In this document: positions 2,328-63,868 of the stretch, one piece after another | How positions within the stretch are numbered: the stretch's first letter is position 1 | Layout of the letters: each line of letters starts with the position of its first letter | Source of the DNA: Halobacteriovoraceae bacterium | GTDB taxonomy: Bacteria; Bdellovibrionota; Bacteriovoracia; Bacteriovoracales; Bacteriovoracaceae | Assembly: GCA_963719505.1 (NCBI GenBank) | Contig: CAVRCF010000001.1 | Span: 896,001-960,000, forward strand | Reading direction: 5' to 3' | Length of the DNA stretch: 64,000 nt | Program-made: the position numbers and the translations under genes | The notes under the pieces: generated by a model | Database searches by the model: none | What the model was told of the DNA's origin: nothing | The model's input: only the letters and a program-made list of their open reading frames with translations

Positions 2328-3518
2328 ATGAAGCTTTCTTTTACTTCATTTTTAAAAATCCTACTTGAGGGAAAGTCCGCAAAAAGATTTTTGGTTGGAG
2401 TTATAGGAAGCTTCGGCTTCTCGATCTCAGTTATCCTGAGCACGATCGGCCTCATGGACGGTTTTGAATCAACACTTATTGAATCTTTAAAAAACTCTAA
2501 CGGTGATCTCATCGTTAAAAAACGCTCGGGCTTTTTCCTTTTTAATGATGAAATAAAGTCTTTAAAAAATCTTGATTATATTGAAGAACTCACACCAATT
2601 GTCCAAGTTGAAGCTTTTGCTATTACAGAGGGTGCAGCTTCTGGAGTTCTTGTTAAAGGGATAGAGCCTAAAAGTTTCGAGCAAGTAACGAACCTTGGAA
2701 TTAAATTGAAACAAGGACAAGTTGCTATCGGGGTAGAACTCTCTGAAAAATACAAGCTCTCGGTTGGTGACTCTATAACTCTTACTTTTGCTTCAAATCA
2801 AAAAGTTAATCAGGGTGCTCCTATTTTGAAAAATTTTATCATCGGAGATATAGCCAATCATAGAGTGTATGAAAAAGATCTGCGTTTTATATACGCCGAC
2901 AAAAAAGAACTCTTAGAGGTTTTGAATTACAAAGAAGAAACAGCAAATACTTTGCTCGTCACAACATCAAAGTATGAAGTGCCAGAACTTTTGGAGGCTT
3001 ATCAAGAATTATTAGAGAAAAAGCTTGATCAAGACTTCACTGTAAGTACTTATTGGAGTGAGTTTAAAGTTCTTTTAAACGCCGTTGAAGTTGAGAAGTT
3101 TTCAATCTCCCTTATTCTTCAGTTGATAGTTATTGTGGCCATCTTTAATATTATTGCTTTTATTATCTTTATTTCAGAAAAAAAGTCTCAAGAGTTTTTT
3201 CTCTTAAGAGTTTTGGGAATAAATCTTAAAACAGTCGTTCGTTTTTGGCTTTTTATGCTGGGGTTCTTGTGGCTGGTCTCATGCGCTGTGGCTTTGGTAC
3301 TAACCTATATCTTCGATATTCTTATTGCAAACCTCTCCTTTTTTAAACTGCCTGGAGACATCTATGTTTTAAGTCGCTTGGGCATTGACCTGGAGTTTAC
3401 AGACTACCTGTTGGTTTTTGGATTAGCACTGGTTTGGATCTTCCTTATAGGAACGCTAAGTATATTGAAATTAAAAAAGAAGACCCTTTTACAAGGGTTG
3501 AGACAGGAGTTTAATTAG
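2328..3518 (+). CDS. LolC/E-like (FtsX/MacB family) ABC permease
   Basis: N-terminal TM, large periplasmic loop, three C-terminal TMs, LPGDIYVLS motif; adjacent to a lolD-like ATPase. Confidence 0.85.
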   Translation: MKLSFTSFLKILLEGKSAKRFLVGVIGSFGFSISVILSTIGLMDGFESTLIESLKNSNGDLIVKKRSGFFLFNDEIKSLKNLDYIEELTPIVQVEAFAITEGAASGVLVKGIEPKSFEQVTNLGIKLKQGQVAIGVELSEKYKLSVGDSITLTFASNQKVNQGAPILKNFIIGDIANHRVYEKDLRFIYADKKELLEVLNYKEETANTLLVTTSKYEVPELLEAYQELLEKKLDQDFTVSTYWSEFKVLLNAVEVEKFSISLILQLIVIVAIFNIIAFIIFISEKKSQEFFLLRVLGINLKTVVRFWLFMLGFLWLVSCAVALVLTYIFDILIANLSFFKLPGDIYVLSRLGIDLEFTDYLLVFGLALVWIFLIGTLSILKLKKKTLLQGLRQEFN

Positions 3519-4177
3519 TGGGATTTATAAAAGTTTCTGATGTAAGAAAGTCATTTGGAAAAACAAGTGTTCTCAATGGTGTTGATTTTGAAATCAATAA
3601 AGGCGATCAAGTCTCTTTGGTGGGGATGAGTGGATCGGGGAAATCGACTCTTCTGTACTTGCTAGGCGGATTAGATAAGCCAAGTTCTGGAAAAATTGAA
3701 ATAGACGGAAAACTTATATCGACGTTAGCAGATGATGATTTAGCGCGCTTTAGAAATCAAGATGTGGGCTTTGTGTTCCAATTTCACTATCTTCTTCCCT
3801 CAATGAATTGCCTTGATAATTTACTTTTGCCCGCCAAAATTGGTGGCGCGGATCTTACTTCGGTAAAAAAATATGTGATTGAATTGAGCGAAAAGTTGGG
3901 GGTTGGGCACTGTTTGGAAAAATTTCCTTACGAAATCTCTGGCGGAGAGCAGCAAAGGGTTAATATTATTCGAGCAGTCTCTCTCAATCCAAGTTTGATC
4001 CTGTGCGACGAGCCAACTGGTAATTTAGATTCGAAGAATTCCGCATTAGTTGTGGCTTTATTGCGAGAGATAAGTGAAAGAATTAACGCGACACTAATCC
4101 TTGTAACGCACGATCCAACCATCGCGTCGCAGCTTCAGAGAAAAATATCAATTGAAGATGGTCGGATAATTGGTTAG
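3518..4177 (+). CDS. lolD: LolD-like ABC ATP-binding protein
   Basis: Walker A GMSGSGKST, GFVFQFHYLL, SGGEQQRV, DEPTGNLD. Confidence 0.9.
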   Translation: MGFIKVSDVRKSFGKTSVLNGVDFEINKGDQVSLVGMSGSGKSTLLYLLGGLDKPSSGKIEIDGKLISTLADDDLARFRNQDVGFVFQFHYLLPSMNCLDNLLLPAKIGGADLTSVKKYVIELSEKLGVGHCLEKFPYEISGGEQQRVNIIRAVSLNPSLILCDEPTGNLDSKNSALVVALLREISERINATLILVTHDPTIASQLQRKISIEDGRIIG

Positions 4178-4230
4178 GATAGCCTCAAGTTATTAATTTT
4201 AGTAGAGAACAATACAAGGTTGTTCGCTTA

Positions 4231-6542
4231 ATGAAAAATATCAGTAGGGGTTATTGTCCTATTGATCCCAATATATCAATTGCTCAAGATTCATTTGGTA
4301 ATTTTAAAGAACTGTTTAAAATAGAAGAAATTAAAATCGTCGGGGCAAAAAAAGTTGAACCCGAGGCAATCTCCGAAAAACTCACGTTAAAAAAAGGTAC
4401 AATTGCTGACAATTGTACTTTGCGCTCAGATATTAAGACAATTTATGAAATGAAGTACTTTGAATCAGTGGAAGCTCATCAAGAAACCATAAAGGGTAAA
4501 AAAATTCTCGTGATTAGAGTTATGGAAAAGCCCATTATTAGCGTTATCCGGTTTGAAGGAAACGACGAAGTTTCAGCAGATGATCTTAAAGAGCAACTGA
4601 AAACTAAAGAATATAATATCTTGGATGTCAACACGATTAAAGGTGATGTCGTCCTTCTGCAGAAGTATTACGAGGAAAAGGGATACTTTCTCGCCAATGT
4701 TGACTATGAACTAGTTAAAAATGAAGTTGGCGGTCTAGATCTTGTCTTAAAGTTAAAGAGTTTTATAAAGTACGAGTTAAGAAAATAATCTTTCTAGGAA
4801 ACCAAGAAGTTCCGGATAATGAACTCAAGCCTATTATGGAAACCCAAGAAGAGACTCTTTTTTCTGGTTTCAGTGGTTCTGGAAACTTTAAAGAGTTCTA
4901 TCTTTCAAACTGATATTGAAAGACTTAAGTACTTTATAAGACTAAAGGATATTTACAAGTCAATATAGGAAATCCTCAGATCACTGTTTCAGAAGATAAG
5001 AAGTGGATTTTTATTACTATAAGAGTAAAAGAAGGACCAAAGTTCACCGTCAATGATATCTTTTATAATGGTGAGCTCTTATTCACTGAAGGTGAACTGA
5101 GAGAGAAGACTCAGCTGCAAGGCGGAGACACCTATTCTGAAGAAGAACTTCGCCATGATATTCAAATGTTGACTGAGATGTATCAAGATAAAGGGTACGC
5201 TTTTGCCAACGTTCTCAGAACTCTTGAAATTGTTCCAGGTGAAAATAAAGTGGATATTTACTACTCTTTTGAAAAAGGTAATATCGCTTACTTTGGAAAA
5301 ATAATTGTCAAAGGAAACACAAAAACAAGAGATAAGGTTGTTAGGCGAGAGCTGAGAATTACCGAAGGAATGATGTATTCTGGAAGTAAGCTTAGACGAT
5401 CAAAAGCAAATGTTAACCGTCTTGGGTTCTTTGAGCCAAATAGTGTTATTTTCAACACAGTTTCTCCTAAAGGAAAAGACAATGTTTTAGATGTTGAAAT
5501 TTCTATTAAAGAGAGACAAACAGGGCAGATTTCATTGGGAGCTGGTTACTCCACTGCAACAAAGGGATTTTTTCAAGCTTCGATTGCACAAAATAACTTT
5601 ATGGGTAAAGGTCAAAACCTAAACTTTAACATCTCTCTAGCTGAGCAGCAAAAAACCTTTAACCTCGGTTTTACCGAGCCTTACTTTCTCGATAGTCTTT
5701 GGACAGCTGGTGGAGATATCTATCAGACACAAAACGGGTTATTGACTTCTTTCTCGTCAAAAAAATGGGGAGCAGATGTTCGAGTCGGTTATCCAATTGG
5801 AGAATACACCAGAGTATTCCTCACGGTTAGACATGAAAAAACTGAAATTGAAAATGTAAGAAATCCAACGATCGATGTTGATATTGAAAATGGAACAGCG
5901 GCAACGGTTAAAACCTCTGTTCGCTATGATAAAAGAAATAACGTATTTGAACCAACTGATGGAGTCTATGGAAATCTCTCTGTTGAGTATGCAGGTCTCT
6001 ACGGTGATCAAGAATGGTTGAAAGGATCTGCAGAGTCTCGATTCTACTATCCAGTTGCTGGTGAGCTCATTTTTAGAAGTCGATTCTTAGTTGAGCAGCT
6101 GATTAAAACAACTGATAGAGCCCTTCCAAGAACGGAAAAGTTTCAACTTGGTGGTTCGAGAAATATGCGTGGATACAACTTTGAAGACGTTGGTCCAAAA
6201 ATTGAGCGCGTTCCAAGAGATGAGGAAGATGATCCGAATGCTGAAACTCAAGTTTTCAATGTCGGTGGTGTTTTCTCTGTTCTTGGTACTTTTGAATTTG
6301 AACATCCTCTTATTAAAGAAGCCGGATTAAAATGGGTTCTTTTCTACGATGTAGGTAACGTATATGCTGACGCAAGCGGAAATGATGGAGAGTATGACCT
6401 TCGCCAGGATTATGGTTTTGGATTTAGATGGTTCTCACCAATTGGAGTTTTGAGGTTTGAATTTGGATACCCAATTGATCCAGAACCAGGACTAAATCAA
6501 GAGGGGCAGAAGTTCCACTTTGATATTGGACAGCTATTTTAA
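4231..6542 (+). CDS. bamA: Outer membrane protein assembly factor BamA, split by several apparent indels (about 4235-4280 and 4750-4940)
   Basis: POTRA repeats in 4231-4788; coding-like intervening frames (KVRVKKIIFLGNQEV..., QTDIERLKY..., KTKGYLQV...); C-terminal barrel with MRGY, WFSPIGVLRFEFG and terminal FDIGQLF. Confidence 0.93.
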
Positions 6543-14948: not shown

Positions 14949-16670
14949 ATGACAACTATGCAAATCCCCGCGTGGGCAAAAGAATTTGAGGTTGTAACAG
15001 CAGCAGAAGCTGAAACAACAAATGTAAACGAAGAGTTTGAGGCTCTTTTAGGTAAAGCTACAACTGGTAACTTTATTGAAGGTGAAGTTTATAAAGGAAA
15101 AGTAATTTTTGTTACTGATGACTTTGTAACTGTTGACATCGGATATAAGCAAGAAGGTTTAGTTTTCGCAAAAGAATTTAGAAACTATGACGGTACTTTA
15201 AAAGTAGCTGTTGATGATGAAATTGAAGTTTATCTTGAAAAACTTGAGTCTCATCTTGGTAACTTAGTTCTCTCTAAAGACAAAGCAGAAATACTTAAAG
15301 CTTGGGATAAAATCTCTGAAGCTTGTGATAAAGGTGATCCGGTTAAAGGAACAGTTATCGCTAAAGTTAAGGGTGGTTTATCAGTAGATATCGGTGTTAA
15401 GGCTTTCTTACCTGGTTCACAAATTGATATTCGTCCAACTAAAAATCTTGATAAATTCATTGGTAAAAACATGGAATTCAAAGTTATTAAGTTTAACAAG
15501 AAACGTGGAAACATCGTTCTTTCTAGAAGAGCAATTCTTCAAGAAGAAAGAGGGAAGTTAAGAGACGAGACACTAGGTCAAATCCAAGAGGGTATGATTG
15601 TTAAAGGTATCGTTAAAAATATCACTGACTACGGTGCATTTATTGACCTTGGTGGTGTTGATGGTCTTCTTCACATTACAGATATGTCATGGGGAAGAGT
15701 TAAGCATCCATCTAACCTTCTAGCTGTTGGTGATGAGATTGATGTTAAGATCCTTAAGTATGACTCTTCGAAAGAAAGAGTTTCTCTAGGTCTTAAGCAA
15801 GTTCAACCAAACCCTTGGGAAACTGCGAAAGATAACTACACTGCAGGAACAAAAGTTTCTGGAGAAATCGTTTCAGTTAAAGACTATGGAATTTTCGTTG
15901 AACTTAATGATGGAATCGAAGGTCTTGTTCACGTTTCTGAAGTTTCATGGACAAACCCTAAGGGACCAATCAAAGGTCACAATGTAGGTGATACTATTGA
16001 AGCACAAGTTCTTGAAGTAGATGTTGAGAACAAGAGAATCTCTCTTGGACTTAAGCAACTTCTAGATAACCCTTGGAAAGCTCTTTCAGAAAAATACCCA
16101 GTAGGTAAAGAAGTTGAAGGAACTGTTAAAGCGATCGTTGACTTTGGTGTATTCGTTGATCTTGGAGATGATATTGACGCTTTAATTCACGTTTCTGATA
16201 TTTCTTGGACAAGAAAAAACATTAATCCAAATGATGAATTTAAAGTTGGGGACAAAGTAAAAGCAGTTGTTTTAACTGTTGACTCTGAAACTTCTAAATT
16301 CTGTTTAGGTATTAAGCAACTTGACGAAGATCCTTGGAAGAAAATTGACCAAAGACTACCAGTTGGTATGTTGTTGAAGGTGAAGTTGTAAGAGTAACTG
16401 ACTTTGGTGCTTTTGTTGAACTTGAAACTGGTATTGAAGGTCTAATCCACATCTCTGAACTATAGTGACGAGAGAGTTGAGAAGCCGGAAGATGTAGTTA
16501 AAGTTGGAGAAAAAGTTAAAGCTCTAGTTATGTCTATCGATAAAGCTGATAAGAAAATTGCTCTATCTAAAAAGAATGCAGCTAACGCTGACCTTGGTGG
16601 ATACAGTAAAGAAGAATCTGGAAGTACTTCTGCTCTAGCAGAAAAGCTGAAAGGTTTCTCAGTAGACTAA
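14949..16670 (+). CDS. rpsA: 30S ribosomal protein S1; two apparent indels near 16370 and 16460
   Basis: Tandem S1 repeats ([22 protein letters not shown]). The sixth repeat continues in shifted frames ([41 protein letters not shown]...) to TAA at 16668-16670. Confidence 0.95.
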
Positions 16671-16694
16671 AATTAATAAATTTAGATACTTAAG

Positions 16695-16724
16695 AAGGGC
16701 TCTCCAATTGGAGGGCCTTTTTTT
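16695..16724 (+). terminator. Rho-independent terminator after rpsA
   Basis: AGGGCTCTCC-AATT-GGAGGGCCT hairpin followed by a T-run. Confidence 0.85.
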
Positions 16725-16806
16725 GGTCTTTTTTACAATAAACCTCAGAATTGTTGTTGTCGAAAGCAAATACGAGTAAAACCTCCAAAAAACAATGGAG
16801 GAATTT

Positions 16807-17340
16807 ATGAAATCGAAAATAATGAATTTTGCTGTCGCACTATCAATTCTTTTTATGAGTCAGCTTATCACTTCAAAGAAATCAGAAGCAGCAATTGGTC
16901 TATTGATGGGCAAGAAAACAGCTGTTACGGTTGGTGGTATCTCAACAGGTACAGTAGCTGTCTCTTTAGTTCTCACTCAGGCAGGTGCTTTTACTTTTTC
17001 TTTGGGCGGAGCTGTTCTTTATGCATTGGGAGTTTACGTTTTTGGAGGTCTTGGACTAATTATCTTGGATGATGATAAGCTGGCTGATATTGAATTTCAA
17101 AAAGTGAAAGGCGATGAGCTGAATGACAAATTTGATAGTGAGGCGATTGCTATCTATAATGATGAGATTGAACAATTGAATGCAATAAGAAAAACAATGC
17201 AGTCGGAACTAACAGATGATTCATCTCTGGAAGAATCAAAAAATTTATGGAGTCAATACAGTAGTTACCTTAGCCCAGAGACAATAGAAATCGCTGGTGA
17301 AATGGCCGATAGGTTTGTTTCTAGAATTAGAGTAAAATAG
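16807..17340 (+). CDS. Secreted hypothetical protein with Gly-rich hydrophobic hairpin (paralog of 19831-20379)
   Basis: GAGG RBS, signal peptide ending SEA-A, Gly-rich hydrophobic segment, acidic helical C-terminus. Confidence 0.8.
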   Translation: MKSKIMNFAVALSILFMSQLITSKKSEAAIGLLMGKKTAVTVGGISTGTVAVSLVLTQAGAFTFSLGGAVLYALGVYVFGGLGLIILDDDKLADIEFQKVKGDELNDKFDSEAIAIYNDEIEQLNAIRKTMQSELTDDSSLEESKNLWSQYSSYLSPETIEIAGEMADRFVSRIRVK

Positions 17341-55602: not shown

Positions 55603-55687
55603 GCTCGAGTGGTGGAATTGGTAGACACGCCAGACTTAGGATCTGGTGCCGTAAGGTGTGAAGGTTCAAGTCCTTTCTCGAGCACCA
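55603..55687 (+). tRNA. tRNA-Leu(TAG)
   Basis: Acceptor stem GCTCGAG/CTCGAGC, anticodon arm CCAGA-CTTAGGA-TCTGG, long variable arm, GGTTCAAGTCC, encoded CCA. Confidence 0.97.
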
Positions 55688-57125: not shown

Positions 57126-57181
57126 TTATTAATCCCTATCCTAAATTAATTACTCTTTATTGGATTGGACCCCGTTTTAGG

Positions 57182-57985
57182 CTACCTTTGATTTTCTAAT
57201 AAATACTCTTTCGGGCTCAACATGCCAAGCCCTGAATGAGGTGCTATTTCATTATAATCTTTCATCCAACCCTTGATCATCTTCAGCACTACATCCGCAC
57301 TGTAACAGTCGCTGTTGTAGACATAGTCTCGCTTGATCGTTTTCACAAAAGCTTCACTCATTCCATTTGATTCTGGGCTATAGGCAGCTGTATAACAGCT
57401 TTTTAAACCAAGATGGTTCGCCAAATTCTTAACAGAATGGGCTCGATAAATACTTCCTCTATCCGATAAAAATTCTATCGTTCTCAAAGTTTTGTAATCT
57501 TTAAACCTGTATTTAACTGCTTTCAGCATCAGACTCTCAATATCAGTCGCAAGCAGTGGTGATTTTGAAGCTACAAATGAGAGAACCTCTCTGTCACATG
57601 TATCTAAAACAAAAGAAACAAAAACTTTTTCTCCGTTAAAGCACTTAATCTCAAAACAATCACTGCACCACCTTGTATTTGAATGCAGAGTCATTACTTT
57701 GCCAGTTGGAGTGTGAGTTCTCGTCACAGCAGACTTTGGAAGAAGAAGTCCATTCACTCTCATGATCCTGTAGATACGCTTCTTATTAAGCCTTGGATGC
57801 CCCAGAGTAAGTCGAAGACGATTGACCATGGCCGTAACTCGTTTATAACCATAAGTTGGTCGTAAGGAAACAATTGACCTAATCTGGCTTAGTATTTCTC
57901 CATCTTCAGCTTTAAAGTAAAATTTCTTTGAGCTAGTCGTTTTATAAATTGATTTTGAGTGGACTCCAAACATTTCACAGATCAT
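57182..57985 (-). CDS. IS3-family transposase OrfB (DDE)
   Basis: PTYGYKR, RWCSDCFEI, LDTCDRE, SDRGS, SPESNGMSEAF, PHSGL. Confidence 0.95.
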   Translation of the reverse strand: MICEMFGVHSKSIYKTTSSKKFYFKAEDGEILSQIRSIVSLRPTYGYKRVTAMVNRLRLTLGHPRLNKKRIYRIMRVNGLLLPKSAVTRTHTPTGKVMTLHSNTRWCSDCFEIKCFNGEKVFVSFVLDTCDREVLSFVASKSPLLATDIESLMLKAVKYRFKDYKTLRTIEFLSDRGSIYRAHSVKNLANHLGLKSCYTAAYSPESNGMSEAFVKTIKRDYVYNSDCYSADVVLKMIKGWMKDYNEIAPHSGLGMLSPKEYLLENQR

Positions 57986-58347
57986 TTTTTTTGATCCTTT
58001 CTTTTTGAGTTTGATGAATTCTTTTGCTCGATCAACTCCTGTTCCAAGATCTTTTTTTTATAAAAATCGATGATATCCTGAGCGACCTCTTCTCTGAGGG
58101 TAGATTCACCAACTTTCTTGAGTAGTTTATCTTTGTCTTTTTTAAGTTGATCAATTTGTTTCAAAAGGTCAGCAACATCGATATTAGTATCAGGTTTGTC
58201 TTTCATAGCTCTTTTCCATTGGTATAAAGTTACTGCATTTATATCATGGACTCGTGCTAAAACTGAAATTGGAACACCTTTTGAACGATGTTCCTGTAGA
58301 ATTTGGATTTTTTGATCTTCGGTAAATCTTCTTCTTTTTCTTTCCAT
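57982..58347 (-). CDS. IS3-family transposase OrfA (HTH)
   Basis: RRRFTEDQK..., LAR.HDI..TLYQWK; A8 slippery run at 57985-57992 at the orfA/orfB overlap. Confidence 0.92.
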   Translation of the reverse strand: MERKRRRFTEDQKIQILQEHRSKGVPISVLARVHDINAVTLYQWKRAMKDKPDTNIDVADLLKQIDQLKKDKDKLLKKVGESTLREEVAQDIIDFYKKKILEQELIEQKNSSNSKRKDQKK

Positions 58348-58466
58348 TTTTTCCTCCGTTAAGAGGTAGCCGTCAAAAGGGGGTCACGAACATTATCTAT
58401 TCGTCAAACTTTAAAAAAAACTTTAAAATTTTCTTTAATATTAATGAATATTTATTTGATGCTCAC

Positions 58467-60949: not shown

Positions 60950-61360
60950 TTGAAGGTAACTAAGGGCCGCGTTCTATCGGTGTTGCTGGTTGAGGATGAG
61001 TGTGAATTAAGATCTGTTATAGCATTACTTATACATTCACTAGAGATTTTTTCATTCGTTGTTGAGGCACGCGATGGAAAAGAGGCAATACAAAAAATGA
61101 CTAATCAAAAGTTTGATTTAATAATTATAGACTTGAATATGCCGAAGTTAGGTGGATTAGAACTTTCAAGGTATATAAAACAGGATCAGAAATTAGCTGG
61201 CACAAGTATTATCATTATGTCAGGAATGATTTCAGGTAAAGACGTCCAAGAATTGAAAAATATTGGCGTAACATCGATTTTGACTAAGCCTGTAGGACTT
61301 ATAAAGCTAAGAGAAACGATAAGCAAAGCCTTGAAGCCAGCTCTTTTAGCTCAATTTTGA
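60950..61360 (+). CDS. Single-domain response regulator (CheY-like)
   Basis: LLVEDE, DLIIIDLNMPKLGG, MSG, LTKP. Confidence 0.92.
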   Translation: MKVTKGRVLSVLLVEDECELRSVIALLIHSLEIFSFVVEARDGKEAIQKMTNQKFDLIIIDLNMPKLGGLELSRYIKQDQKLAGTSIIIMSGMISGKDVQELKNIGVTSILTKPVGLIKLRETISKALKPALLAQF

Positions 61361-61545
61361 ACTATCCTATATTTAAGGGAGCTAAAAGCATTCTTCAAAT
61401 TACTGATATTACGTATAGATATGTTATATGACTTGAATTTTTTGATCTTAAACCCTTACCAAGAAATGCGTCACAATTTTTGCTCCGCGTTATTATGTAT
61501 TTATTTAAAATTAATAAGACAAACTAACCAAGGGAGAACATTATT

Positions 61546-62670
61546 ATGAAAAAATTATTAACAGGAGTTTCATTTTTAGTATGTATTTTAAATTTTACTT
61601 CTCAAAAGACAATCACAAGTACTTTTCAATCTAATCTCAGTTTTTTAAGGTCACCATCTTCAGTCGAAGACGTTGGTATTATAGGCCCTGAAGGCGATGT
61701 CATTTTATTTTAAAAAGACAAGGATCGCATCATTGTAAAGAACTGTGGAACCAACACAATTCTTGGACACACTCCTGCTGAGGCAAGAAAAAACTGTGAT
61801 GGGCCTGTAAATAAGGTTCCTATAGAATCTTTTAAAAATGCTTTAAGAAGTTTAGTTTCTACTGATCGTTTGAATGTGCTTAAACCACTTACACCAGAAG
61901 AAGTTGATGCTTATAATAAAAATGAGCCAAGTTTAGATCAGATTGAGAAAATGGGTATTGAACTTGATCGTATTAATGCTTTTATAACGGCTTATGGTGC
62001 AGAGAACGCCAACCTTGTACGAAAAGAGGAATTAGTAAAAGCACTTAGATCATCTTCGACTCGTGTTGATGCAATTAAAAAAATTAATGTAGAGATTAAA
62101 AATACATTTACACTAATAACAAGCCAAACAAAACTAACTCTTGCAAAATTTAATACAGATAAAGACAAGTTTCTTTATACTGTTTTGAAAAACTTTGATC
62201 CAACTCAGAAATTTCCATGTGGACTTAAAGGTTCTGTGGATGAAAGAATTAAAGACTGCTCTTATCAATTAACTTCTGAGAAAGAAGGCTTTGTTCTGGT
62301 GACAAGATCAAAAGACTTTAAAGAAGTTCATAAAGAAGTTTCAACAGGTCTTTTTTGGAGTGATAGACTTCCAAAAACTATGAATCATTACAGCGCAGAA
62401 AAAGCTTGTAATTCAAGCTTAAAAGAAGTTGCAGGTATTTCAGGCGTTACTTGGAGACTTCCATCAAAAGAAGAATACGAACAAGCCGAGAAAAATGGTA
62501 TCCGCAAGGCACTACCAAATATGAGCTACTGGTTCTGGTCTTCTTCGGTGCACCGTAACAACTCTGACTACGCGTGGCTGTTCAACGGCTACGACGGCTT
62601 CGTTGACTACTACTACCGCAGCGACGGCAACGACTACGACTACTACTCGGTTCGGTGCGTAGCGCGCTAG
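61546..62670 (+). pseudogene. DGR target protein: signal peptide plus C-terminal CLec/DUF1566-type domain, with in-frame TAA at 61711-61713
   Basis: GGGAG RBS and ATG at 61546 are in frame with ORF 61870-62670; TGLFW, A...C, WRLPS.EE, FWSSS, AW.F, SVRCV motifs. Confidence 0.85.
62524..62670 (+). repeat. DGR variable repeat (VR) with GC-rich IMH-like 3' end
   Basis: 31 of the last 49 sense codons are NNC; all adenines in 62524-62658 are at positions 1-2 of NNC codons; abrupt GC increase. Confidence 0.88.
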
Positions 62671-62705
62671 GCGTGGAAAAGTATGATTTGATTATTTTAT
62701 AATTT

Positions 62706-62724
62706 GGACCGCGACTAGCGGTCC
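62706..62724 (+). promoter_or_regulatory. GC-rich hairpin/cruciform downstream of the VR
   Basis: GGACCGC-GACTA-GCGGTCC, 35 nt after the stop codon. Confidence 0.75.
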
Positions 62725-62755
62725 TTTAACTTTTTATGAACATGGAATTATTTGA

Positions 62756-62932
62756 GTGGCAAGATTTCAACATTTACCATTGTATAAAGCAACTTATAGT
62801 CTGTGCTTGAATGCCCATAGACTCAAATTAAAAATGCCAAAACGTCTAAAGCATGATGCTGGGGAAGCATTTGTAAGCAATTGCTTGAAATGTGTGAAAA
62901 TAATAATTATTGCAAATCAAATACAAGAAAAA
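62756..62932 (+). pseudogene. avd: Truncated Avd-like four-helix-bundle gene; the ORF runs on into unrelated sequence to 63139
   Basis: MARFQHLPLYKATYSL...MPK..K...G...I..AN...EK matches the N-terminal half of Avd-type proteins; similarity lost after about residue 59. Confidence 0.7.
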
Positions 62933-63220
62933 TATAACGAGACGACTTTTTCCCAACTTTTCAGGACCGGGCGACGAGCTGGTCCAAATTCTAATATCAT
63001 AGCCTGGAAGCATTCGGGCTTTTGTATCCAAACTTTGAATAGAGTTTATATTCTCGTTAATAACCTTCATAGATCCATTTTAAGCAACACAAAAAATGGA
63101 TTTTATCGTTTTGTATACGTGCTCGTATTTATCATTTAGAAAATGGAATATTTTGCAAAATGGGGAGGGGGGACTATAAGTAAATATTCAATGTGTCGAT
63201 AAAGCATTAAGGGAGATTTT

Positions 63221-63868
63221 ATGAAATTTATTTTTTTATTTTTGTCGATTACTTTTACTTTTTCATCGTTTGCACAATTAAATGAGAAACATATAAGACC
63301 TTACAGTGACTTTCCCGAAGAAGGTTATCCAGAATTTGAAAAAATTGGAATTCCAATAGGAACAACTTTTAATTTTCAAAAGCCAAAAAAATCCGAACTT
63401 GACTGTGAGCCTGGTATTGCAAAGGGGGGGAGCGAAAGGTTAAATGAACAGGATGCAGCGGTGTAAAAGTTCTATACTTCTTCTGGTGAGCAGGTCTGTA
63501 ATAAAACATGGGAATTTTTAAAGCTACTTGCTTTAGGGGGTGATGCTTGTTCACTTTTTTACTTTAAAAATTCACCTTCTAATATGAGCTGCACTTTAAG
63601 AACTATTTTACCTGATTGGGATACTTTAACTTATATCTTTCAAGAGAAAAACTGCCCTATACTTTCGTGTAGAGCAGCTCTTGCCCCTAGGTACAGAAAC
63701 TTCACCAGGGAAATAAATGATAGTTTAGGGAAATATGTCTCATTTGAAGTTAACAGAGCTTCTACTGACGAGGCACAATTGGTCAATTCTAATAGAGAAA
63801 ATGGCAAAAACTTTGAAACTGAGTCTAAGCCCAATAAAGTTAGACATCACAATGCAACTGAACAGTAG
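63221..63868 (+). pseudogene. Secreted hypothetical protein with in-frame TAA at 63464-63466
   Basis: ORFs 63221-63466 and 63584-63868 share one frame, and the intervening codons are open (KFYTSSGEQVCNKTWEFLKLL...). Confidence 0.7.

What the first reader, a model, noticed from the sequence alone, without database searches (positions are those of the whole stretch)
61546..62932. Diversity-generating retroelement target cassette (target-VR-hairpin-avd) in a probable predatory bacterium
Seen: a signal-peptide gene ending in a C-type-lectin/DUF1566-like domain (WRLPS..E, FWSSS, AW.F, SVRCV). Its last 50 codons abruptly switch to NNC codons (31 of 49), with no adenine in structural codons and none at a third position across 62524-62658. 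A GC-rich 3' end, a 7-bp GC hairpin and an Avd-like gene follow. Established: DGRs (Bordetella phage BPP-1, Legionella, Treponema) mutate adenines of AAC codons in a template repeat and paste the copy into a VR with this layout. Inference: an exported hypervariable ligand-binding protein, possibly for prey or surface recognition in a Bdellovibrionota predator.
Basis: partly seen in the sequence, partly recalled or inferred. Interest (0 to 1): 0.93.

Follow-up and report, generated by a model that had tools for sequence, protein, structure and literature searches.

The report
Orphaned DGR variable-region cassette
This is the receiving half of a diversity-generating retroelement: a surface-protein gene with a hypervariable lectin-like tip, its hairpin and a stub of the helper gene, but the reverse transcriptase and template that would mutate it are missing from this genome.

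Summary
Window 61546-62670 (+) encodes a secreted protein with a C-terminal Lcl_C/DUF1566 lectin-like domain. Its last 48 sense codons (62524-62667) hold 31 NNC codons and are 57% GC in a 37% GC genome. A is absent from 16 of the 17 other codons. A conserved 7-bp hairpin (62706-62724) and the first ~60 codons of an avd gene (62756-~62935) follow.

Orthologues in Bacteriovoracaceae differ in this stretch mainly at codon positions 1-2. Relatives carry intact target-avd-RT/TR cassettes, in which 19 of 19 TR/VR mismatches lie at TR adenines. So this is a genuine DGR variable region.

Here the donor half is missing. Avd homology stops near 62936. No template repeat (BLAST, A-tolerant scan) and no reverse transcriptase (Pfam RVT_1, tblastn) is found in the 3.69-Mb assembly.

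The target frame also has a TAA at 61711-61713 where orthologues have Tyr. This may be a real mutation or a consensus error, because the assembly is noisy.

The VR shows no synonymous decay (26 C-ending to 0 T-ending codons), so the loss looks recent.

Verdict: an orphaned acceptor cassette of a known DGR class, of moderate interest.

The parts
61546..62670 (+). DGR target gene: signal peptide, about 200-aa N-terminal module, C-terminal Lcl_C lectin-like domain. The frame is interrupted by one TAA.
   Evidence: ORFs. Read-through translation and Pfam. Orthologues at 68-75% identity.
61711..61713 (+). In-frame TAA stop where the orthologues read here have Tyr. Either a real nonsense mutation or a consensus error.
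   Evidence: Tyr in orthologues. The assembly is noisy: rpsA needs two frameshifts and the rRNA copies differ by 0.15-0.44%.
62335..62661 (+). Lcl_C (formerly DUF1566) C-type-lectin-like domain.
   Evidence: PF07603 at E 1.0e-11 at this place and E 1.8e-11. AF2 model (pLDDT 68.8): top Foldseek hit is the Legionella Lcl C-terminal domain, followed by C-type lectins.
62524..62670 (+). Variable region (VR). AAC-derived NNC codons sit on an A-free scaffold. The 5' limit is approximate because no TR is available.
   Evidence: Orthologues differ here mainly at codon positions 1-2.
62647..62676 (+). GC-rich, conserved 3' end of the VR running across the stop codon (IMH-like segment).
   Evidence: Conserved across 7 orthologues in alignment A2. 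IMH identity cannot be shown without a TR.
62706..62724 (+). 7-bp GC-rich hairpin with a 5-nt loop, 36 nt after the stop codon.
   Evidence: Fold. 98.2% of cells paired in 7 orthologues, with 2 pairs changed on both sides. It also scores as terminator-like.
62756..62935 (+). Avd stub: GTG start plus about 60 codons homologous to residues 1-59/61 of full-length Avd.
   Evidence: tblastn: residues 1-59 of 127, 80-81% identity. HMMER: 1-61. NF033474 profile positions 1-52 of 104, E 0.0095.
62936..63220 (.). Unrelated sequence after the breakpoint. The ORF from 62756 reads through to 63139 with no Avd homology. Relatives have the rest of avd and the RT here.
   Evidence: Contigs of runs X1 and X3 diverge from the window here. 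No similarity to any fetched locus or to the rest of the genome. RT follows avd in L071 and L069.

Best explanation
This is the acceptor half of a diversity-generating retroelement of the DUF1566/Lcl_C (CLec2, 'category d') class in a Bacteriovoracaceae chromosome. It has lost its donor half.

Inferred history, from the established DGR mechanism: an adjacent avd-RT-TR module transcribed the template repeat. The RT with Avd copied it into cDNA, misincorporating at template adenines. The cDNA replaced the VR, guided by the GC-rich 3' end and the hairpin. That rewrote the ligand-binding face of an exported lectin-fold protein.

Shown here: a rearrangement or deletion near 62936 cut avd after about codon 60. 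No RT or TR remains in the assembly. The VR is therefore a frozen variant, and the target may be a pseudogene if the TAA at 61711 is real.

Inferred: the loss is recent, because the VR has not begun to decay synonymously.
For: VR signature:
- 31 of 48 codons are NNC.
- 16 of the 17 non-NNC codons lack A.
- GC is 57%.
- Among two-fold Y-ending codons, C:T is 26:0, against 18:58 in the gene body and 29% C genome-wide.

Domain: Lcl_C hits above Pfam's cut-off. The model has a lectin-like fold.

Hairpin: conserved in 7 orthologues with compensatory changes.

Orthologues: summed over 7 pairwise comparisons, the VR shows 150 differences at codon positions 1-2 and 54 at position 3. The gene body shows 630 and 962 (odds ratio 4.2). 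The pairs are not independent.

Close relatives in runs: contigs of run X1, about 92-96% identical in the flanks, break at the VR start (62532). In 21 VR letters they differ at 10, of which 9 are at codon positions 1-2 (my count).

Intact relatives:
- L069 and L071 have target, hairpin, a full 126-127 aa Avd and then an RT. The Avd hits Pfam bAvd at E 2e-10 and NF033474 at E 8.7e-14. The RT carries IGNLTSQ and YMDD motifs.
- G213 and G023 have TR/VR pairs with 19 of 19 mismatches at TR adenines over 125 nt.

Donor missing here:
- Avd aligns only over residues 1-59.
- BLAST of the VR finds only itself, plus 14-24 nt chance hits.
- An A-tolerant ungapped scan finds only the VR itself (141 of 141). 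The next best, 113 of 141, lies in an A-rich Lys/Ala gene.
- PF00078 gives 0 matches at E<=1.
- tblastn with the L071 and G023 RTs finds nothing at E<=0.01.
Against: The assembly is rated 83.5% complete and has consensus errors. A donor on an unassembled replicon cannot be excluded, and the TAA may be an error.

The complete lack of synonymous decay in the VR fits continuing rewriting in trans as well as it fits recent loss.

No raw reads of the source sample were available, so I could check neither the junction near 62936 nor VR heterogeneity.

No TR of the closest orthologue group was recovered anywhere. Adenine-specific mismatch could therefore only be shown in more distant relatives.
Confidence: 0.78

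Rival explanations
1. The cassette is still an active DGR target. A compatible TR-RT lies on unassembled DNA, a plasmid or a phage, and rewrites this VR in trans.
For: Completeness is estimated at 83.5%. The VR has 26 C-ending and 0 T-ending two-fold codons, so no decay. The GC-rich 3' end and hairpin are intact. From recalled literature, not seen here, DGRs with targets remote from the TR-RT are known.
Against: In the complete or nearly complete related cassettes seen here, avd, RT and TR lie beside the target. Here avd itself is cut. No TR or RT is found in 3.69 Mb. The low completeness probably reflects frameshift errors in a 5-contig assembly rather than missing DNA (inference).
Confidence: 0.1
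2. Assembly artefact. The organism has an intact DGR, and the junction near 62936 and the TAA at 61711 are a mis-join or strain mixture and a consensus error.
For: The assembly has errors: rpsA needs two frameshifts within about 100 nt, and rRNA and IS copies differ slightly. Relatives in runs X1 and X3 read on into avd where the window diverges. The neighbouring gene also has an in-frame TAA in a similar TAAAA context.
Against: If this were only a mis-join, the missing avd 3' half, RT and TR should be assembled elsewhere, and they are not. Independent avd stubs beside VR-bearing targets occur in other genomes: G211:C99, G213:C16, and L036 with an IS. Truncation is therefore a recurring natural state.
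Confidence: 0.08
3. Not a DGR feature. The stretch is a Tyr/Asp/Asn-rich low-complexity tail with local codon bias, followed by an ordinary intrinsic terminator.
For: NNC-rich windows are not rare in this genome (about 120 clusters). The hairpin with its T-rich tail scores as terminator-like.
Against: There is no tandem repeat. The scaffold codons are A-free. Orthologues vary at codon positions 1-2. An Avd homologue lies directly downstream. Homologous cassettes carry an RT and an adenine-mismatched TR.
Confidence: 0.02

Closest known systems
Legionella pneumophila DGR with the LdtA target (category 'd' / CLec2 targets of Wu et al. 2018, PMC5758913; passages seen)
   Same: The VR overlaps DUF1566/Lcl_C with a weak Fib_succ_major match. 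The VR sits at the extreme C-terminus. The orthologues have a lipoprotein-type signal ending in Gly-Cys (read by eye), as described for LdtA in the passage read.
   Different: No RT or TR is present here and avd is truncated. The N-terminal module is unrelated to any Pfam family. The host is a Bacteriovoracaceae bacterium. The window's own signal peptide lacks the canonical Gly-Cys box seen in its orthologues (by eye).
Bordetella phage BPP-1 DGR (Mtd, bAvd, Brt), the prototype; recalled, no paper read here
   Same: Same logic of a VR at the 3' end of a lectin-fold gene, a GC-rich 3' end plus a downstream hairpin, an Avd helper and adenine-specific mutagenesis. The last is shown here only in relatives. 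The Avd of relatives hits Pfam bAvd.
   Different: This one is chromosomal, with no sign of a phage. The target is an Lcl_C-type protein, not Mtd. In the closest intact relative the gene order is target-avd-RT, with the TR not between avd and RT. The donor half is absent here.
Intact Bacteriovoracaceae DGRs found here (L069/L071 metagenome contigs; G213:C3, G243:C59, G023:C7)
   Same: Homologous target (48-75% identity for the orthologue group), the same hairpin and the same Avd (80% identity over residues 1-59). The G023 target shares the N-terminal module (BLASTP E 4e-19).
   Different: These keep a full Avd and an RT, and G213, G243 and G023 also show their TR. The L069 and L071 contigs end within the RT. 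G023 couples the shared N-terminal module to an FGE-sulfatase-type VR domain and an HRDC gene.
Bdellovibrio bacteriovorus MAT fibre Bd2740 C-terminal lectin-fold tip (PMC10769870; passages seen)
   Same: A surface-displayed lectin-fold domain in a predatory bacterium. It is the third Foldseek hit to the model (E 1.8e-2).
   Different: The structural match is weak, on a model of pLDDT 68.8. Bd2740 is a trimeric fibre tip that is not known to be DGR-diversified. There is no sequence homology and no evidence for a role in predation here.

Membership tests
Diversity-generating retroelement (complete, functional element) | A DGR-clade reverse transcriptase in the locus or genome | tested here: not met
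   PF00078 gives 0 matches at E<=1 in G000, while the control rings in 4 of 14 genomes. tblastn with the RTs of L071 and G023 finds nothing at E<=0.01. The assembly is rated 83.5% complete.
Diversity-generating retroelement (complete, functional element) | A TR/VR pair whose mismatches lie at TR adenines | tested here: not met
   There is no second copy in G000 by BLAST or by the A-tolerant scan. The feature is met in relatives: 19 of 19 mismatches at A in G213 and in G023.
Diversity-generating retroelement (complete, functional element) | VR at the 3' end of a target gene, with AAC-derived codons on an A-poor scaffold | tested here: met
   Orthologues vary at codon positions 1-2.
Diversity-generating retroelement (complete, functional element) | Accessory gene avd, intact | tested here: not met
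   Only residues 1-59/61 of 127 are present. NF033474 matches profile positions 1-52 of 104 at E 0.0095, far below the cut-off.
Diversity-generating retroelement (complete, functional element) | GC-rich IMH at the VR 3' end plus a downstream hairpin (features recalled from the literature) | tested here: inconclusive
   The hairpin is present and covaries, and the GC-rich end is conserved. An IMH can only be defined against a TR, which is missing. The hairpin could also be a terminator.
DGR target proteins of category d (DUF1566/Lcl_C, CLec2) | The VR overlaps a DUF1566/Lcl_C or Fib_succ_major match | tested here: met
   PF07603 at E 1.8e-11, 44.8 bits against a 34.9-bit cut-off, residues 156-264 of 266. 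PF09603 is weak at E 0.01. TIGR02145 hits at E 8.7e-5.
DGR target proteins of category d (DUF1566/Lcl_C, CLec2) | C-type-lectin-like fold | tested here: inconclusive
   The model has pLDDT 68.8. The best Foldseek hit, 8q4e (Lcl C-terminal domain), has E 2e-3 and TM 0.45/0.53, and many C-type lectins follow, none at E<=0.001.
Avd (Pfam bAvd PF22296 / NCBIfam NF033474) | Full-length four-helix-bundle protein that matches the family profile above its cut-off | tested here: not met
   The window's stub has no Pfam hit. The full-length relative L069 passes Pfam (41.5 against 40 bits) but not the NCBIfam cut-off (51.7 against 80). The stub is 80-81% identical to residues 1-59 of those relatives.

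The most novel reading that the evidence does not exclude
Bacteriovoracaceae predators may use a family of DGR-diversified surface lipoproteins with an Lcl_C lectin tip to recognise prey or surfaces. Lineages may then repeatedly 'freeze' a successful variant by deleting the donor half (3' avd, RT, TR) while keeping an intact acceptor (VR, GC-rich end, hairpin). Such an acceptor could be re-diversified if a related DGR arrives by transfer. The recurrent avd stubs beside VR-bearing targets (this window, G211:C99, G213:C16, L036) would be traces of that cycle rather than random decay.
Probability: 0.15. Interest if true: 0.6.

Novelty: new member of a known kind. Interest (0 to 1): 0.35.

Why it matters
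DGRs are the only known natural system in prokaryotes for targeted protein hypermutation. My two full-text searches found no paper that mentions them together with Bdellovibrionota or Bacteriovorax. Supplementary tables of the large DGR surveys could not be read and may list such elements.

Intact and orphaned copies occur side by side.

This particular locus is the orphaned state. It is useful as a natural 'frozen' VR for dating the loss and for asking whether acceptors outlive donors. It is not evidence of ongoing hypermutation or of a role in predation.

Tried and rejected
- Viral contigs: no relative of the target and no match to the VR scaffold pattern.
- Genome contigs: no close relative of the L069 Avd. 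The scaffold pattern finds only the two known VRs and no TR.
- TR searches with each orthologue's own VR in G021, G041 and G042: self only, plus short chance hits. blastn-short of four VRs against all fetched loci finds no TR.
- PDB sequence searches with the C-terminal domain and with profile A1: nothing below E 0.6.
- Runs X2 and X13: only 37-42 nt matches under 90% identity to the GAC/TAC-rich part, taken as other organisms' sequences. No contig of the four runs covers 62929-63225 or 61400-61709, so nothing follows from that. Whether the relatives have the TAA at 61711 could not be read, because the one contig reaching it starts at 61710.
- A second GGACC...GGTCC hairpin-like site at 62964-62985 is not better than shuffles (z -0.42).
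- Tandem repeats: none.
- The other GC-rich clusters that I translated and the second Lcl_C gene (G000:C5:849687-850061) show no VR-like stretch.
- A count of same-frame split ORFs genome-wide (352) could not separate errors from adjacent genes.
- The post-breakpoint DNA and the upstream spacer have no similarity to any fetched locus or elsewhere in the genome.
- The search of earlier findings returned nothing.
- The only RT in G021 (C21) sits among membrane-protein genes and matches the G213 DGR RT only weakly (E 1.5e-6), so I did not take it as the donor.

Full report
**What is in the sequence**

The window is G000:C1:896001-960000 of a 3.69-Mb, 5-contig assembly with 36.8% GC, rated 83.5% complete. 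On the + strand, 61546-62670 is one reading frame with a signal peptide. It is interrupted by a single TAA at 61711-61713, so the ORF list shows 61546-61713 and 61870-62670.

The C-terminal 109 residues match Pfam Lcl_C (PF07603, formerly DUF1566) at E 1.8e-11, above the curated cut-off. Fib_succ_major matches weakly.

From 62524 the codon usage changes abruptly:
- 31 of 48 sense codons are NNC, against 33 of 326 upstream (Fisher p 7e-16).
- Third-position A is 1 of 48, against 126 of 326.
- GC is 57% against 33%.
- Of the 17 non-NNC codons, only GTA at 62659 holds an A.

NNC-rich windows as such are not rare in this genome (about 120 clusters). Only 25 clusters of 144-nt windows reach 55% GC, and the 18 others that I translated are Gly-rich or ordinary coding regions or RNA-gene-like stretches. 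There is no tandem repeat.

A 7-bp hairpin lies at 62706-62724 (-9.1 kcal/mol, z -4.4).

**Is it a DGR variable region?**

Four lines of evidence say yes.

1. Orthologues. I read ten: three from representative genomes (G021, and the MAG records L036 and L037) and seven on metagenome contigs (L066-L071 covering the whole VR, 48-75% identical; L072 only in part).
   - They share the scaffold and the GC-rich 3' end but differ in between, also in length.
   - Summed over 7 pairwise comparisons, differences in the VR are 150 at codon positions 1-2 and 54 at position 3. In the gene body they are 630 and 962 (odds ratio 4.2). The pairs are not independent.
2. Hairpin. It is conserved in 7 orthologues, with 98.2% of cells paired and two pairs changed on both sides.
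3. Avd. The ORF that starts at 62756 is 80-81% identical over its first 59 residues to full-length Avd proteins of two metagenome contigs, L069 and L071.
   - Of these two, L069 was scanned: it hits Pfam bAvd (E 2e-10, above the cut-off) and NCBIfam DivGenRetAVD (E 8.7e-14, below the cut-off).
   - In L071 the avd overlaps the start of an RT that carries IGNLTSQ and YMDD motifs. That these motifs are DGR hallmarks is recalled, not tested.
4. Complete DGRs in the same family.
   - G213:C3 and G243:C59 have target, avd, TR and RT.
   - G023:C7 has target, an HRDC gene, avd, RT and TR.
   - In G213 and in G023, 19 of 19 TR/VR mismatches over 125 nt lie at TR adenines.

A model of the last 160 residues (pLDDT 68.8) is closest to the Legionella Lcl C-terminal domain (E 2e-3), followed by C-type lectins. 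The fold evidence is weak but coherent.

This matches 'category d' targets of Wu et al. 2018, exemplified by the Legionella lipoprotein LdtA (PMC5758913, passages read).

**What is missing**

The donor half is not there.
- BLAST of 62500-62700 against the whole assembly finds only itself, plus 14-24 nt chance matches.
- I ran an ungapped scan that accepts either identity or an A in the candidate template. The VR scores 141 of 141 against itself. The next best is 113, in an A-rich Lys/Ala gene.
- PF00078 finds nothing at E<=1.
- tblastn with the RTs of L071 and G023 finds nothing at E<=0.01.
- Avd homology ends after residue 59-61. The rest of the ORF, to 63139, is unrelated read-through.

Contigs of two public runs (X1, X3) come from relatives about 92-96% identical in the flanks. 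They follow the window to 62928 and then continue differently. Allowing for a 6-nt indel, which I judged by eye, seven more letters agree, so the breakpoint lies at about 62935/62936. Translated, the relatives' continuation resembles the next Avd residues of L069.

The DNA after the breakpoint has no similarity to any fetched locus or to the rest of the genome. Downstream genes are ordinary chromosomal ones (short-chain dehydrogenase, DTW, Band 7).

**State and age of the relic**

- At the TAA at 61711-61713, the orthologues read here have Tyr.
- The assembly has consensus errors. rpsA needs two frameshifts within about 100 nt. The two rRNA operons differ by 4 mismatches and 1 gap in 3348 nt and by 8 mismatches in 1828 nt.
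- I therefore cannot say whether the stop is real.
- The VR has not decayed. Among two-fold Y-ending codons it has 26 C-ending and 0 T-ending, against 18:58 in the gene body and 29% C genome-wide.
- In the X1 relative, a 496-nt contig ends exactly at the VR start (62532). In addition, 21 VR letters differ from the window at 10 places, 9 of them at codon positions 1-2, while the adjacent 302 nt differ at 12 (my count).

Diversification therefore went on after these close strains split, and the loss here is recent. Alternatively, but less likely, a donor still acts in trans.

**Recurrence**

Orphaned copies are common in the family.
- With the L069 Avd as query, 6 of 237 genomes match at E<=1e-5, counting G000.
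  - Matches cover most of the length in G213:C3 and G243:C59 (43-44% identical) and in G047 (26% identical, not examined further).
  - They are partial in G000 (residues 1-61), G213:C16 (1-54, with a TAA) and G211:C99 (1-39).
  - The G051 match is cut by a contig end.
- G211:C99 and G213:C16 each have a VR-bearing Lcl_C target followed by the stub and unrelated genes.
- G211 (rated 100% complete) has no match to the G213 RT at E<=1e-5.
- In L036 the avd remnant has stops and is followed by a transposase gene. In G021 no avd start follows the hairpin in the 170 nt before the contig ends.

**Verdict**

This is a real DGR acceptor cassette of a known class, in a clade for which I found no published mention. 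My searches were 'diversity-generating retroelement(s)' with Bdellovibrio, with Bdellovibrionota and with Bacteriovorax. The first returned 2 papers; I read one and it only cites a DGR paper in its reference list, and the other I saw only in the search listing. The other two searches returned nothing. Supplements were closed.

In this genome the cassette is orphaned and possibly a pseudogene.

A role in prey recognition is speculation. The only link is that a Bdellovibrio lectin-fold fibre tip, Bd2740, is the third structural hit.

Noticed in passing
window 15000-17200: The rpsA (ribosomal protein S1) frame is broken by two frameshifts within about 100 nt (near 16380-16480). For an essential gene this points to consensus errors in the assembly, and probably explains the low completeness estimate.
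   Followed up: partly
window 63221-63868: The next gene, a signal-peptide protein of unknown family, also has a single in-frame TAA (63464-63466) in a TAAAA context like the one at 61711. This could be a shared error mode, or a second pseudogene.
   Followed up: partly
window 57161-58392: A 1.2-kb insertion sequence with two overlapping ORFs, which I took by eye for an IS3-family transposase. Besides this copy, the genome has 6 near-identical copies (99.8-100%) and one at 92.6%.
   Followed up: partly
window 55603-55687: tRNA-Leu, followed up to the DGR relic by small signal-peptide ORFs without Pfam hits, the IS and a lone response regulator (60950-61360). This may be a variable island. It was not tested.
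   Followed up: no
L032 (G023:C7:7000-16000) 2941-6470: A complete DGR whose target shares the N-terminal ~200-aa module with the window's protein (BLASTP E 4e-19). It ends in an FGE-sulfatase-type VR domain instead of Lcl_C. One N-terminal module is thus coupled to two classes of lectin-fold VR.
   Followed up: partly
L080 5545-6313; L082 5132-5832; L083 1760-3327: Small gene pairs that look by eye like toxin-antitoxin modules. In G213:C3 they sit between avd and TR-RT. In G213:C16 and G211:C99 they sit directly after the avd stubs. They may mark the rearrangement sites. This was not tested with a family search.
   Followed up: no
L036 7058-9141: The avd remnant has stop codons. It is followed by a 396-aa transposase gene flanked by what looks like an 8-bp direct repeat (by eye), then a recombinase-like fragment and tRNA-His on the minus strand.
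   Followed up: partly
L037 4600-4740: In this orthologue the VR's stop codon is lost and the frame runs on for 8 codons. The DNA just downstream repeats a mid-gene segment of the target. A rearrangement replaced the hairpin and avd.
   Followed up: no
L066 7274-7711; L033 2850-3107: An HRDC-domain gene lies upstream of the target in some orthologous cassettes, as in the G023 DGR. None lies beside the window's target; the only tblastn match in G000 is far away at C1:74775-74963.
   Followed up: partly
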